From a phage, in sequence record PX418922.1: a stretch of 64,000 bases of DNA. One strand, 5' to 3'. Of the stretch, positions 59,620 to 62,867 are shown piece after piece. A program made the position numbers and the translations under genes. The notes under the pieces are model-generated. The model saw only the letters and a program-made list of their open reading frames with translations. It searched no databases and had not been told where the DNA came from. How positions within the stretch are numbered: position 1 is the stretch's first letter; each line of letters opens with the position of its first letter.

Positions 59620-60579
59620 TTAGATTCCAATGATAGTTGCTGCTCGTTTATCCTTGGATCTGGTGTTTGCTCTACTACGTGACAAACCTCCACAAGATTC
59701 ACAACGAATGATATCGAAAGAACTTACCGCAGTGTGGTATTGTTTACCAGTAACAACGTGAACGTGATCACTGCCACAACGAGAACAACGGACCTTCTCA
59801 TCTGGGTAATAAGCGGATAAGTTAGGATGCTGTGGAATCCACGGAAGGATTTTCATATACAAATCACGGAGTGAAACAACATCACCATCATTGTAAATCT
59901 GCATACGTTCAAAAGCATCACGATCACCTTCACAACATGCTTTCCATAAAGGGAACCCCTCGTTATCCAGTTTTTCACTTTCTGTTTCGAAATATGCTCC
60001 CATTTCTTTAAGGGAGTTGGAAGGAAGTGCAAATTGTTTCTTAGCTGCCTTCAATGTATCAACAACTACATAATTAGAAGGAGGAGCCATATCGTGATAT
60101 GCAAATCGTTGGTTAATGTATGCACGGTCAAACTTATACCCGTTGTGTGCCACAACTACATCTGCCTCATTCAGAAGGTTCCAAAGATCTTGGCAAAGCT
60201 CCCAATCATCTGTATAATCAATATCAAAAAGAGGATAAGAAGACAAGTTCTTACCTTCCACTTCACCAGTATACAGGTCAGCAGAAGAGTAAGATAACAA
60301 ATAACCCCTACGAATTACTTGATCTGGAGAAATGAAGGCTTTGAATCGACGGAAAGTATATGCAATCTCTGGTGCAGTTTCAACATCAATAATTTTAATA
60401 ACGGGTTGTTTCTTTTTAACTGGCTCTTGTTTACTTGCTCCAAATCGTGCAAGGAAATCGTTCACTGTGCTTTTTCTTGTTGGACTACCTAAAACAATTG
60501 CTGCAATATTACGAGAAGACATACCCTCTGCACTCATACTAAGGATATCTGCTTTCTGCTCTTCTGTTAATCTGCTCAC
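59620..60579 (-). CDS. DEDD-family 3'-5' exonuclease with N-terminal HTH and C-terminal zinc ribbon
   Basis: Exo I IDVETAP, Exo II VAHNGYKFD, Exo III YNDGDVVSLRDLY; N-terminal sigma-region-4-like HTH; C-terminal CSRCG..CESCG. Confidence 0.6.
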   Translation of the reverse strand: MSRLTEEQKADILSMSAEGMSSRNIAAIVLGSPTRKSTVNDFLARFGASKQEPVKKKQPVIKIIDVETAPEIAYTFRRFKAFISPDQVIRRGYLLSYSSADLYTGEVEGKNLSSYPLFDIDYTDDWELCQDLWNLLNEADVVVAHNGYKFDRAYINQRFAYHDMAPPSNYVVVDTLKAAKKQFALPSNSLKEMGAYFETESEKLDNEGFPLWKACCEGDRDAFERMQIYNDGDVVSLRDLYMKILPWIPQHPNLSAYYPDEKVRCSRCGSDHVHVVTGKQYHTAVSSFDIIRCESCGGLSRSRANTRSKDKRAATIIGI

Positions 60580-61682
60580 TCTGCCTCCTGTTGTGAGATG
60601 TATGACTGAAGCATACTCTCAAATGTTGTATCGTCATTATCCCAGCGTTTCATGTATACCAACTGGAAAATTGTTTCTATCCATTCATCTGTTGTCATAT
60701 GGACTTCTTCTCCATCCCAAGAAGTAAAATTAACACCATCTGGGAACCATGAGTAGTAAGTATCTTTAACTGTTTGGAAAAGTTCTGCTTGAGTTTTACA
60801 AGCTGAAAGAAGATTAAAACAAGTAATATCTCCGAACTTAATATCAAAATCTTGATAAGGTCGAATACTATCTGTTTTATCTCCCATTAGCATCTGATAT
60901 GCTAACCAGTAACTGCCCCAACCTTTAACTTCTTTCTTTTTACCTTTATCTACGATCCATATATCGCCAATAGACTCGTCAATAAGAATTATATCTGGAT
61001 TTTTAAATACTCCATCCTCTTTGTAGAAATTAAAAAGGATACTAGGAGTATGTAAACTATCTTTATCTATAGATACTACGATATAAGAAAATTTACCCGT
61101 CCTTTTATAATCTTTATAACCTTGGAAACCATACTTCTCTAACTCATCATCAGCTTCTATTACAGTAACAACATCACCATTGTGGAACTCCACAAGATAA
61201 TCTTTGGTTTCTGAAAGCTGAAGTGGTTTGATATCTAATCGTTCAGATTTATATTCTACAGGCATTTTGAAGGCGTGTCTGAAAGTTTTTCCTACGCCAA
61301 TAACTCCGCAATATTTTTCTAAACGTAGATGTTTTAGAATACCTAAGACTTTTGTTTTAGCTGCTTGGAAGGTGTGTCCGATATCTTCTGGCGGGTATTG
61401 CTTATCAATGATTTCGAACTCTTCCTTTGTGAAGGGACGTTTGTTTTTGGAGGCTCTTTCTGCATTTGTATCTCCTAGCCAACCTCCAATTTTAGTCTTG
61501 CTTTTACCCCAAAACTCTGTCTTATTTTTAAATTCCTTTTGAGCACCTGAAGGGATGTGCTTCGCAATGATTGTTCTTTTCTCTAATGCAGATGCTGCTT
61601 GGAAAGCGATCTGATCATAATCAATTGCAGCTATTGTTTCTTCGTTGACATATAAATGAAGATCTTCAGGTTTAATTAAAAT
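60576..61682 (-). CDS. rnh: T4 RNase H-like 5'-3' exonuclease / flap endonuclease; 5' end uncertain
   Basis: ETIAAIDYDQIAFQAAS, VIEADDEL and MLMGDKTDSIRP match T4 rnh/FEN motifs; only ATG is internal (61265) but frame stays open to 61706 with no ATG/GTG/TTG. Confidence 0.5.
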   Translation of the reverse strand: MLIKPEDLHLYVNEETIAAIDYDQIAFQAASALEKRTIIAKHIPSGAQKEFKNKTEFWGKSKTKIGGWLGDTNAERASKNKRPFTKEEFEIIDKQYPPEDIGHTFQAAKTKVLGILKHLRLEKYCGVIGVGKTFRHAFKMPVEYKSERLDIKPLQLSETKDYLVEFHNGDVVTVIEADDELEKYGFQGYKDYKRTGKFSYIVVSIDKDSLHTPSILFNFYKEDGVFKNPDIILIDESIGDIWIVDKGKKKEVKGWGSYWLAYQMLMGDKTDSIRPYQDFDIKFGDITCFNLLSACKTQAELFQTVKDTYYSWFPDGVNFTSWDGEEVHMTTDEWIETIFQLVYMKRWDNDDTTFESMLQSYISQQEAE

Positions 61683-61706
61683 ATAACCGCTAATATTTCC
61701 CCCTAA

Positions 61707-61916
61707 TTATTCATCGTCATCCTCTGTTGAGAATGTTTTAGTATACGGACATTGACGACTTTTCGGGATTGCTATAACTTCATCTTGGTTAGCGTTAGAA
61801 TAGTAGCAATATTTTGTATTGCCATTAACTTCAGAATCAGACAAGATTAAAGTAATTTGACCTGCTGCTACTGTGAAACTAAAAGCTAAAAGAACGACTG
61901 TCAGAATCTTTTTCAT
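61707..61916 (-). CDS. secreted small protein (69 aa)
   Basis: Signal peptide MKKILTVVLLAFSFTVAAG; acidic C-terminus. Confidence 0.5.
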   Translation of the reverse strand: MKKILTVVLLAFSFTVAAGQITLILSDSEVNGNTKYCYYSNANQDEVIAIPKSRQCPYTKTFSTEDDDE

Positions 61917-61988
61917 AACGCCTCCTAAAAAGCCTACCTCATTAAGTAGGTAGGCATAATATCATAACTAATCCCGCAAGTCAAGAAC

Positions 61989-62867
61989 TTATTTAAGGAT
62001 TGTTGCTTTGGTTAAATCTTCCATCAGACCTCGAATCTCATTGAAGCACAGAAGGACCGAAGCTTCAATACTACCTTCTTCGTCTGCAAAATATTTCGGA
62101 AAACGTAGTTTAGAAAGTTTAAACTCTTTATCCACTACAAAATCTACAACACCGTCATATTCAAGACCGATTGCAACAACATCTTTACCATCTTCTTTTA
62201 GTTCGACAGCTTTAGACTCGTATAGGGATTCTTTACTCCAAACAACAACGCCCTCGCTATCCTCCATTTTGATATAATTTCCGAGAGTAATACGATCTGC
62301 TTCGTGATTCTCCAGCAATTCACCAAAACCTTTTACAATAGCTTCTTCGTGCACACTAAAACCTACCGAAGGGAAAGTCCCAAGAACGGAACGGAGGAAA
62401 GAAGTAATCTCTTCTGCAACCTTTTTACTTCCATTAAGAACATAAAGAAGATTCGTAGTTTTATCCAAGACAATATAGTTAAAGAAATCTTCAGGTTCTG
62501 TTTCAGGCAATAGTGCAAATTCAATATCTTCCTTCATTGCTTTGACTACTTCTTTATCGACATAAAACTCTTTACCTTCGCTCTCCATGTCCTGACGCAT
62601 TTCTTCTAGACGTTCATTCAGAATACGTTTAACTTTCTTTTTATCTACCTTCTTCACAGATTGACCTACATTAAGTAGTTCAAGATCTGAAAACTCTTTT
62701 ACAAATTTAGAGTCATCTTCGAAACGAACAAGACCGATAGTGTGTGACTGGGAGCCTTCTGCTGTTACAAATTCCAGAGGAATATCTGTAATGCTGTTAA
62801 GGGATGCTACAGAAGCATTGTCACCAACAACCATAGGCAGAGCAGATTTAAAAGATTTTACAAACAT
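61989..62867 (-). CDS. hypothetical protein (292 aa)
   Basis: Minus-strand ORF, acidic. Confidence 0.5.
   Translation of the reverse strand: MFVKSFKSALPMVVGDNASVASLNSITDIPLEFVTAEGSQSHTIGLVRFEDDSKFVKEFSDLELLNVGQSVKKVDKKKVKRILNERLEEMRQDMESEGKEFYVDKEVVKAMKEDIEFALLPETEPEDFFNYIVLDKTTNLLYVLNGSKKVAEEITSFLRSVLGTFPSVGFSVHEEAIVKGFGELLENHEADRITLGNYIKMEDSEGVVVWSKESLYESKAVELKEDGKDVVAIGLEYDGVVDFVVDKEFKLSKLRFPKYFADEEGSIEASVLLCFNEIRGLMEDLTKATILK

What the first reader, a model, noticed from the sequence alone, without database searches (positions are those of the whole stretch)
60576..61706. RNase H/FEN homologue lacks a canonical start: open frame continues 440 nt upstream of the only ATG
The ORF track reports 60576-61265 starting at an internal Met, but the same frame is open up to the TAA of the upstream gene at 61707-61709. 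The upstream translation (..ILIKPEDLHLYVNEETIAAIDYDQIAFQAAS..) carries the N-terminal FEN block aligned with T4 RNase H (EGICLIDFSQIALSTAL). No ATG, GTG or TTG exists in frame; a GGGGGA RBS-like sequence is followed by in-frame ATT codons. This points to a non-canonical ATT start, a sequencing or assembly error, or a truncated gene.
Basis: partly seen in the sequence, partly recalled or inferred. Interest (0 to 1): 0.5.

Follow-up and report, generated by a model that had tools for sequence, protein, structure and literature searches.

The report
Phage flap-endonuclease gene starting at ATT
A phage DNA-repair/replication nuclease gene really does begin at a weak, non-standard ATT start codon, a feature kept (as ATT, ATC, ATA or CTG) across a whole group of related phages and missed by most genome annotations, which cut off the first 143 amino acids.

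Summary
On the minus strand the frame is open from 61706 to the stop at 60576, with no ATG, GTG or TTG before 61265. The window is a phAPEC8-like Phapecoctavirus. 65 GenBank genomes carry the same region at 95% identity or more, so this is not a sequencing error.

The start is the ATT at 61694-61692, 4 nt after AGGGGG. It aligns with the initiator codon of orthologues that start canonically: ATG in CR3, TTG in rV5-like phages, and TTG directly after an in-frame stop in L096. In 19 related lineages (50-100% protein identity) that codon is always ATT, ATC, ATA or CTG behind a GGAGG-type ribosome-binding site. In one lineage an in-frame TAA sits immediately before it.

Best reading: a 372-aa FEN is translated from a weak near-cognate start, close behind the upstream gene's stop, as in E. 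coli infC. Only the ESCO13 record among those inspected annotates it this way. No experiment confirms the N-terminus. This is a new member of a known kind, of moderate interest.

The parts
60576..61694 (-). Full-length coding sequence of the FEN-family 5'-3' exonuclease: 372 codons plus a TGA stop
61692..61694 (-). ATT (AUU) initiation codon
   Evidence: It aligns with the ATG of CR3, the TTG of rV5-like phages and the TTG of L096. In 19 related lineages the codon here is ATT, ATC, ATA or CTG. In L014/L028 an in-frame TAA directly precedes it.
61698..61704 (-). Shine-Dalgarno sequence AGGGGGA, 4 nt upstream of the ATT
   Evidence: Read directly from the sequence. Relatives have GGAGG followed by 4-5 nt and then ATH or CTG.
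61263..61265 (-). Internal ATG (Met144), used as the start in most database annotations; probably not a start
   Evidence: No Shine-Dalgarno sequence precedes it (AGACACGCCTTCAAA ATG). It lies inside the conserved FEN motif F138-R139...Y148-K149..R152. It is annotated as the start in phAPEC8, iGC_PHA_EC001, ASO2A and KP2025.
61266..61691 (-). The 5' part of the gene (codons 2-143) that most annotations omit
   Evidence: pN is 0.16-0.40 against saturated pS of 0.66-0.90 in 11 comparisons. It holds invariant D25, F55 and R139. On its own it matches phrog_107 at 5e-7.
61707..61916 (-). Upstream small gene: 69 aa with a signal peptide and an acidic tail. Its TAA stop lies 12 nt before the ATT, in the same frame
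   Evidence: ORF listing. The phi92 homologue gp086 carries a SignalP annotation of 1.000. A stop within 0-18 nt of the start is seen in every related locus.
61932..61984 (-). Sigma-70-like promoter (TTGACT-17-TATTAT with a TG extension), followed at once by a GC-rich hairpin and T-run, ahead of the small gene. It probably starts the operon
   Evidence: Consensus scan only: 10 of 12 promoter positions match; the hairpin is at 61955-61932. ASO2A annotates a terminator at this position. Function is inferred.
59620..60579 (-). Downstream gene (DnaQ-like exonuclease with a zinc ribbon). Its GTG start overlaps the FEN TGA stop as GTGA
   Evidence: ORF listing and sequence. Pfam RNase_H_2 PF13482 at 1.2e-9.

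Best explanation
The gene at 60576-61694 (minus strand) encodes a complete 372-residue flap-endonuclease-family 5'-3' exonuclease. The likely function is Okazaki-primer or flap removal during phage replication. Translation starts at the AUU codon at 61694-61692, read by initiator tRNA as a one-mismatch near-cognate. An AGGGGG Shine-Dalgarno sequence sits 4 nt upstream. The start lies 12 nt after the stop of the upstream small gene, so ribosomes finishing that gene may re-initiate there.

What is shown: the reading frame, its conservation and fold, the homology of the ATT to the start codon of orthologues, and the clade-wide restriction of that codon to ATT/ATC/ATA/CTG. What is inferred: that the weak codon is maintained by selection to keep synthesis of the nuclease low, or dependent on IF3 or on coupling. 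This would parallel E. coli infC and pcnB. In E. coli such codons initiate at about 0.02-3% of AUG (bioRxiv 10.1101/063800).
For: (1) Frame: the frame is open with no canonical start for 147 codons, and 0 of 20,000 shuffles stay open.

(2) Not an error: 65 genomes are at least 95% identical over 60400-62000. 54 are identical over the 71 nt around the start. IMG/VR, Logan and ENA contigs show the same architecture.

(3) The 5' part is coding: pN 0.16-0.40 against pS 0.66-0.90. D25, F55 and R139 are invariant. tblastn covers residues 1-376 in distant phages.

(5) Start position: CR3 has ..GAGGAGTGAGTA ATG GGT TAT. rV5-like phages have AGGAGGGTCT TTG. L096 has AGGAGGATAG TTG, so its start is pinned by an in-frame stop. 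L014/L028 have AGGAGGAGTAA ATC GGT TAC, also pinned by a stop. The window has AGGGGGAAAT ATT AGC GGT TAT.

(6) Clade-wide pattern: 19 lineages use ATT (8), ATC (5), ATA (4) or CTG (2), always 4-5 nt after a GGAGG-type site, while the flanking codons vary. On an NJ tree I count about eight codon switches by hand, none to ATG or GTG.

(7) The internal ATG has no Shine-Dalgarno sequence and splits the FR..YK..R motif. The phi92 annotators noted 'No RBS identified; weak Prodigal statistics' at their alternative GTG start.

(8) ESCO13 RefSeq already annotates the ATT-started 372-aa CDS.

(9) The infC precedent of an AUU start 3 nt after the thrS stop, with re-initiation and de novo initiation contributing equally, is in PMC3592434.
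Against: There is no direct evidence of translation: no N-terminal peptide, no ribosome profiling, no protein size. Spacing of 4 nt after GGAGG is at the short end of functional spacings. Lineages L082, L083 and L093 also have an in-frame ATG about 9 codons further downstream, without a Shine-Dalgarno sequence, which could serve there instead. The conserved Ile codon could in principle reflect an Ile residue in a protein that starts still further upstream. That is excluded only where a stop directly precedes it (L014/L028, L096). Selection for weak expression is inferred from the conservation pattern and was not measured. The window protein itself gets no Pfam or PDB hit by sequence, so FEN membership rests on fold, on PHROG and on relatives that hit PF02739.
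Confidence: 0.85

Rival explanations
1. The protein is the 229-residue product started at ATG 61265, as most GenBank records annotate. The 440 nt upstream would be untranslated leader or a decayed remnant.
For: It is the only canonical start in frame. phAPEC8, iGC_PHA_EC001, ASO2A and KP2025 annotate it this way. Felixounavirus tblastn hits cover only residues 151-363.
Against: The upstream 143 codons are under purifying selection while synonymous sites are saturated. The frame stays open in every lineage. The ATG has no Shine-Dalgarno sequence. The truncated protein would lack the first core strand with invariant D25, and F138/R139 of the FEN motif. All other lineages have a different first canonical codon (codon index 9 to 200), so no shared internal start exists.
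Confidence: 0.03
2. Stop-codon readthrough or frameshifting from the upstream in-frame small gene makes a fusion protein, so no separate start is needed.
For: The small ORF and the nuclease are in the same frame, separated by one stop, in the window and in many relatives. A 444-aa 'fusion' protein cluster, P0005, exists in the protein database.
Against: The P0005 DNA has a TAG stop and the locus does not translate to the query, so it is a gene-caller artefact. The stop varies between TAA, TGA and TAG. L015, L016, L014/L028 and L029 have two in-frame stops. In L082, L097 and CR3 the upstream gene is different (a methyltransferase or an HNH endonuclease), and in L082 it is in another frame. A fusion would put a signal peptide on a DNA nuclease. 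The conserved Shine-Dalgarno sequence is unexplained by readthrough. No conserved slippery sequence is present.
Confidence: 0.02
3. A sequencing or assembly error removed an ATG.
For: None beyond the oddity itself.
Against: 65 independently sequenced genomes and many metagenome contigs share the feature. Divergent lineages carry different near-cognate codons at the same place.
Confidence: 0.003
4. Initiation occurs at one of the next in-frame ATT codons (61682 or 61676) rather than at 61694.
For: Both are near-cognate codons in the right frame, 16 and 22 nt from the Shine-Dalgarno sequence.
Against: The spacing is too long for the Shine-Dalgarno sequence. These positions are not near-cognate in L015, L016, L082, L083 or L097 (F/E/T/K/Y codons). 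Only 61694 aligns with the start of the canonical orthologues.
Confidence: 0.05

Closest known systems
E. coli infC (IF3) and pcnB, the two confirmed AUU-initiated E. coli genes
   Same: Both have an AUU start behind a Shine-Dalgarno sequence, giving deliberately inefficient initiation. In infC the AUU lies 3 nt after the upstream gene's stop, and about half of its expression comes from re-initiation (PMC3592434; bioRxiv 10.1101/063800). Here the ATT lies 12 nt after the upstream stop. From memory, infC also keeps a near-cognate start (AUU/AUA/AUC) across distant bacteria.
   Different: This is a phage gene for a DNA nuclease, not a translation factor, so there is no obvious autoregulatory loop. 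IF3 dependence is untested. The codon drifts among all four near-cognates (ATT, ATC, ATA, CTG) within the clade.
Bacterial and phage flap endonucleases / 5'-3' exonucleases (T5 D15 exonuclease, T4 RNase H, E. coli ExoIX, M. smegmatis FenA; Pfam PF02739/PF01367)
   Different: Sequence identity to solved structures is only 12-20%. The window protein has no Pfam or PDB hit by sequence. It is about 70-130 residues longer than those enzymes, with extra elements between the first and second core strands (residues about 39-123). The usual second acidic residue before the FR motif is not evident (GVIGVGKTFR).
Orthologous exonuclease genes of Vequintavirinae and relatives (rV5, CR3, PVP-SE1-like, phiTE)
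   Same: The proteins are 37-47% identical over the full length, lie in a similar replication/recombination gene neighbourhood, and start at the same position.
   Different: They use canonical ATG, GTG or TTG starts and are annotated full-length.
Phage T4 gene 26 internal AUU start (recalled from memory: Nivinskas et al. 1992; not checked here)
   Same: A phage gene product initiated at AUU in E. coli.
   Different: That is an internal start producing a second, shorter product. Here AUU is the only start of the full-length protein.

Membership tests
FEN / 5'-3' exonuclease superfamily (PIN-like nuclease domain plus H3TH) | The FEN fold: a PIN-like alpha/beta core with a helix-3-turn-helix DNA-binding region | tested here: met
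FEN / 5'-3' exonuclease superfamily (PIN-like nuclease domain plus H3TH) | A conserved cluster of about 7-8 carboxylates for two metal sites, plus the FR..YK..R and GDxxD motifs | tested here: met
   Invariant across 39 homologues: D25, R139, Y148, K149, E180, D182, D183, D210, K211, D212, D272, D275. Mapping these onto T5 residues D26/E128/D130/D153/D155/D201/D204 is from memory, not computed. The equivalent of T5 D68 was not identified.
FEN / 5'-3' exonuclease superfamily (PIN-like nuclease domain plus H3TH) | A sequence-profile match to Pfam 5_3_exonuc_N (PF02739) above threshold | tested here: not met
   The window protein has no Pfam hit at E<0.1 other than a spurious one. 9 of 39 family members hit PF02739, best E 1.7e-6. 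A profile search of PDB sequences found nothing. phrog_107 'exonuclease' matches at 1.4e-55. It is a divergent branch, so membership rests on fold and motifs.
FEN / 5'-3' exonuclease superfamily (PIN-like nuclease domain plus H3TH) | Structure-specific 5' flap or 5'-3' exonuclease activity | not testable with these tools
   Needs biochemistry.
Genes initiated at a non-canonical near-cognate codon (infC/pcnB type) | No in-frame ATG/GTG/TTG that could yield the complete conserved protein | tested here: met
   The first canonical codon is codon 148 of the open frame, inside a catalytic motif.
Genes initiated at a non-canonical near-cognate codon (infC/pcnB type) | A near-cognate codon at proper distance from a Shine-Dalgarno sequence, homologous to the start of orthologues | tested here: met
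   AGGGGG + AAAT + ATT. It aligns to the ATG, GTG or TTG starts of CR3, PVP-SE1-like, rV5-like and L096 loci. In-frame stops directly upstream in L014/L028 and L096 pin the position.
Genes initiated at a non-canonical near-cognate codon (infC/pcnB type) | Evolutionary conservation of the weak start | tested here: met
   19 lineages carry ATT, ATC, ATA or CTG. There are about 8 switches on the tree (hand count) and none to ATG or GTG. One nested lineage has TTG.
Genes initiated at a non-canonical near-cognate codon (infC/pcnB type) | Experimental proof of the initiation site (N-terminal sequence, toeprint or start-site profiling) | not testable with these tools
   The paper searches found no report on this start: 'phAPEC8' with 'start codon', 'ATT start codon' with 'phage', and the ESCO5/ESCO13 announcement.
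Genes initiated at a non-canonical near-cognate codon (infC/pcnB type) | IF3-sensitive expression level | not testable with these tools
   Inferred only, from the known discrimination by IF3 against AUU-class codons.

The most novel reading that the evidence does not exclude
The near-cognate start may be a selected regulatory device rather than just a tolerated weak signal. Across the whole Stephanstirmvirinae-like clade, synthesis of the replication flap endonuclease would be tied to IF3 availability and/or to termination-reinitiation from the preceding gene. That would make it a phage counterpart of infC-type control, setting the dose or timing of a potentially genotoxic nuclease. The codon's repeated drift among ATT, ATC, ATA and CTG, with ATG and GTG never fixed although ATG is one mutation away, would be the evolutionary signature of that selection.
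Probability: 0.35. Interest if true: 0.6.

Novelty: new member of a known kind. Interest (0 to 1): 0.42.

Why it matters
Only two E. coli genes, infC and pcnB, have experimentally confirmed non-canonical (AUU) starts (bioRxiv 10.1101/063800). This phage gene offers a natural, deeply conserved third context in the same host's translation system. It comes with a built-in evolutionary series (ATT, ATC, ATA, CTG, and TTG/GTG/ATG in sister groups) suited to testing how start-codon strength is tuned.

There is also a practical consequence. The FEN gene is mis-annotated in most of the roughly 130 GenBank Phapecoctavirus, Justusliebigvirus and related genomes. It is either truncated to 229 aa or started at an internal GTG or TTG, and spurious small ORFs sometimes fill the gap. 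Homology-based and structure-based annotation inherit a protein that lacks part of its catalytic core. Gene callers limited to ATG/GTG/TTG will keep making this error.

Tried and rejected
- **Sequence searches on the window protein.** Pfam and PDB sequence searches with the single sequence and with a 39-member profile gave no FEN hit. The family link came from PHROGs, from relatives and from fold comparison.
- **RNA structure around the start.** None beyond chance (z = 0.30), so there is no evidence for a structure-gated start.
- **tRNA genes in the window.** None. A phage tRNA that decodes AUH as a start was not pursued, because the CTG lineages argue for ordinary initiator-tRNA mismatch pairing.
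- **The 444-aa 'fusion' protein P0005.** This is an artefact: the DNA has a TAG stop.
- **Other long frames without a start in the window** (19890-19426, 23061-22609 and others). These are shadows of genes on the opposite strand.
- **Out-of-frame ATGs in the acidic-tail codons** (gATGacgATGaat). They end after 5-6 codons, and no conserved slippery site exists to join frames. Frameshifting is rejected.
- **Literature searches.** Searches for this start codon in phAPEC8, ESCO13 and phage 'ATT start codon' papers found no discussion. Two searches failed on term format.
- **One bad row in the DNA alignment.** One row (PsgM04F) used wrong coordinates and should be ignored. Its start region is shown correctly.
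Full report
**1. The observation**

On the minus strand the sequence reads ...GAT GAC GAT GAA TAA | TTA GGG GGA AAT ATT AGC GGT TAT ATT TTA ATT AAA CCT... The frame then stays open for 376 codons, down to TGA at 60578-60576. The first in-frame ATG, GTG or TTG is the ATG at 61265-61263. This is why the mechanical ORF list gives only 60576..61265, 229 aa.

None of 20,000 dinucleotide-preserving shuffles of the 441 upstream bases remains stop-free. Given the 5.5% frequency of ATG/GTG/TTG among internal codons of this window's long ORFs, 143 codons without one has P of about 3e-4. No other gene in the window shows such an extension. The runners-up are shadow frames of genes on the opposite strand.

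**2. Where the window comes from, and whether this is an error**

The region 60400-62000 matches 65 GenBank phage records at 95% identity or more. These are the genus Phapecoctavirus (phAPEC8-like, subfamily Stephanstirmvirinae). A 71-nt probe around the putative start is identical in 54 records and differs by 1-2 bases in 11. The same architecture appears in IMG/VR, Logan and ENA metagenome contigs. A sequencing or assembly error is therefore excluded.

Among the Phapecoctavirus-type records inspected, four start the gene at the internal ATG and call a 229-aa protein: phAPEC8, iGC_PHA_EC001, ASO2A and Klebsiella phage KP2025. phAPEC8 also carries a spurious 40-aa ORF in the gap.

Justusliebigvirus records (phi92, ESCO32) start at an internal GTG, giving 344 aa. 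The phi92 annotators themselves noted 'No RBS identified; weak Prodigal statistics'. One genome, ESCO13 (GenBank KX552041, RefSeq NC_047770, YP_009786567.1), annotates a 372-aa CDS beginning exactly at the ATT. The accompanying paper does not comment on this (PMC5374246).

**3. The upstream 143 codons are coding and part of the enzyme**

- tblastn with the whole open frame covers 80% or more of the query in 901 phage records. Coverage is 97-100% in distant phages whose genes are annotated full-length: CR3 371 aa, rV5-like CarlMeissner 379 aa, Pseudomonas Epa17 362 aa.
- Against 11 relatives, synonymous sites in codons 2-143 are saturated (pS 0.66-0.90) while non-synonymous differences are 0.16-0.40. 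The 3' part of the gene shows the same regime.
- In a 39-sequence alignment, invariant residues include D25, F55 and R139 in the 'missing' part. Y148, K149, E180, D182, D183, D210, K211, D212, D272 and D275 are invariant in the rest.
- The internal Met is residue 144. It sits inside the FEN signature F138-R139-x8-Y148-K149-x2-R152.
- The 143-residue piece alone still hits phrog_107 'exonuclease' at 5e-7. The whole protein hits at 1.4e-55.
- An AlphaFold2 model built from the alignment has mean pLDDT 95.1 and pTM 0.88. It has no low-confidence segment, and core strands come from both parts.
- By sequence the window protein is too divergent for Pfam or PDB searches, although 9 of 39 relatives hit PF02739.

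A 229-aa product would lack the first core strand with the invariant Asp and half of a catalytic motif.

**4. Where translation starts**

Orthologues with canonical starts place the initiator codon directly before a G-Y (or S-x-x-Y) motif, a few bases after a strong Shine-Dalgarno (SD) sequence:

| Locus | Sequence at the start |
|---|---|
| CR3 | GAGGAGTGAGTA ATG GGT TAT |
| rV5-like | AGGAGGGTCT TTG AGT AGA GAA TAT |
| PVP-SE1-like | AGAGGGCTA GTG GGA TAT |
| L096 | AGGAGGATAG TTG AGT TTT (the TAG is in frame, so the TTG is the first possible codon) |

The window has AGGGGGAAAT ATT AGC GGT TAT, so the ATT at 61694-61692 occupies that position. I collected the same site from every lineage I could reach with 50-100% protein identity to the window protein:

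| Lineage | Start codon |
|---|---|
| Phapecoctavirus | ATT |
| L088 | ATC |
| L010 / PsgM04F | ATT-ATC |
| L089 | ATT |
| Justusliebigvirus | ATT |
| L013 | ATC |
| L014/L028 | ATC, directly after an in-frame TAA (aggaggagTAA ATC GGT TAC) |
| KP2025 / L085 | ATC |
| L090 | ATT |
| L091 | ATC-ATA |
| L029-type and L092 | ATT |
| L035 | ATT |
| L084 | ATT |
| L082 | ATT |
| L093 | ATA |
| L083 | ATA |
| L015 | ATA |
| L016 | CTG |
| L097 | CTG |

In every case GGAGG (or GGGGG, or GGAGA) lies 4-5 nt upstream, while the codons on either side vary freely.

On a neighbour-joining tree these lineages form one clade. By my hand count there are about eight switches among near-cognate codons, none to ATG or GTG, and one nested lineage (L096, beside the CTG lineages) with TTG. 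ATT, ATC, ATA and CTG are exactly the four one-mismatch near-cognates that support measurable initiation in E. coli.

The later in-frame ATTs (61682, 61676) are too far from the SD and are not conserved as near-cognates. The internal ATG has no SD. L082, L083 and L093 additionally have an SD-less ATG about 9 codons downstream, which leaves some ambiguity for those three only.

**5. Mechanism**

*Shown:* the gene structure, the homology of the ATT to orthologous starts, the SD, and the clade-wide restriction to near-cognate codons.

*Inferred:* initiator tRNA pairs with AUU with one mismatch, giving a formyl-Met N-terminus. Output is low: AUA, AUC, AUU and CUG give 0.02-3% of AUG in reporter assays (bioRxiv 10.1101/063800), or 6-8-fold below AUG in another system (PMC3592434).

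The stop of the upstream gene lies 0-18 nt before the start in all lineages, 12 nt here. This holds even where the upstream gene is a different one, such as a methyltransferase whose TAG lies inside the SD in L082, or an HNH endonuclease in L097. Termination-reinitiation probably contributes, as it does for infC, whose AUU lies 3 nt after the thrS stop (PMC3592434).

A sigma-70-like promoter (61984-61956, 10 of 12 matches with a TG extension) and a hairpin (61955-61932) precede the small gene. The FEN stop overlaps the GTG of the next gene as GTGA. The unit therefore looks like an operon with graded translation signals.

ATG is one mutation away from ATT, ATC, ATA and CTG, yet neither ATG nor GTG is ever seen in the clade. 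I infer selection for weak or conditional expression of the nuclease. This was not measured.

**6. Rivals**

- Internal-ATG product: contradicted by sections 3 and 4.
- Readthrough fusion with the in-frame upstream signal-peptide ORF. The apparent 444-aa fusion cluster P0005 is an artefact, because its DNA has a TAG stop. Several lineages have two in-frame stops, and others have a different upstream gene.
- Frameshift from the out-of-frame ATGs in the GAT-GAx acidic tail: there is no conserved slippery site, and those frames stop within six codons.
- RNA structure gating: none detected (z 0.30).
- Sequencing error: excluded by section 2.

**7. Comparison and novelty**

The thing works like infC and pcnB: an AUU start, an SD, and close coupling to the upstream stop. 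It is a divergent member of the FEN family.

Non-canonical starts are a known kind. This particular ATT start is already present in one RefSeq annotation, though without discussion. What appears new, within the limits of the library searched, is twofold. First, the near-cognate start is conserved across the clade and inter-converts among the four near-cognates. Second, the mis-annotation is widespread.

I rate it a new member of a known kind, of moderate interest. The main uncertainty is the absence of any direct translational evidence.

Noticed in passing
window 61707-61916 (-): The small gene directly upstream of the nuclease encodes a 69-aa protein with a signal peptide, two Cys residues and an acidic tail (..TEDDDE). 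It keeps this position and the same reading frame in most related lineages. phi92 gp086 is annotated with SignalP 1.000. Klebsiella phage KP2025 labels it 'gram-negative pili assembly chaperone', which looks like an over-annotation. Its function is unknown.
   Followed up: partly
L085 (Logan SRR30397360 contig) and protein cluster P0005: A 444-aa protein cluster with 48 member sequences fuses the small ORF to the nuclease. The DNA has a TAG stop between them (DEDDE* EGNIGY..), so the gene caller apparently read TAG as a sense codon. The entry is an artefact in the protein database.
   Followed up: yes
window 61343-61465 (-): A 40-aa ORF in another frame, inside the unannotated 5' part of the nuclease gene, is annotated as a hypothetical protein in phAPEC8 (G377_gp266). 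Other records list 2-3 'hypothetical proteins' in the same gap. These are probably spurious calls filling the hole left by the missed start.
   Followed up: partly
window 61932-61984 (-): A good sigma-70-like promoter (TTGACT-17-TATTAT with a TG extension) is followed immediately by a GC-rich hairpin and T-run, between the RdgC-like gene and the small ORF. The hairpin would be both a terminator for upstream transcription and the 5' end of the new transcript.
   Followed up: no
window 60576-60579 (-); gene 59620-60579: The nuclease stop and the next gene's GTG start overlap as GTGA. The next gene is a DnaQ-like (RNase_H_2, PF13482) exonuclease with C-terminal Cys-x2-Cys zinc-ribbon motifs, annotated 'DNA polymerase exonuclease subunit'.
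   Followed up: no
(GenBank records): Records labelled Campylobacter phage (MG0656xx series), Acinetobacter phage vB_AbaM_ABPW7, Klebsiella phage ZCKP1 and Pseudomonas phage PsgM04F match this region of E. coli Stephanstirmvirinae or rV5-like phages closely. ZCKP1 is identical over the 71-nt probe and ABPW7 is 99.6% identical. PsgM04F and the Campylobacter records match the sister lineages at 71-87% nucleotide identity. The host labels look doubtful and may reflect contamination or mislabelling.
   Followed up: no
L005 (CR3), L097, phiTE, vB_PseuGesM_254 loci: In several distant relatives an HNH homing endonuclease gene sits immediately upstream of, or next to, the FEN gene. This suggests the junction is a recurrent insertion site for mobile endonucleases.
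   Followed up: no
L039/L040, L047, L053 (Vequintavirinae-like IMG/VR loci): Even among relatives with canonical starts, this gene often uses GTG or TTG, or an ATG only 1 nt after GGAGGA. Weak initiation of this nuclease may therefore be a broader trend than the near-cognate clade alone.
   Followed up: partly
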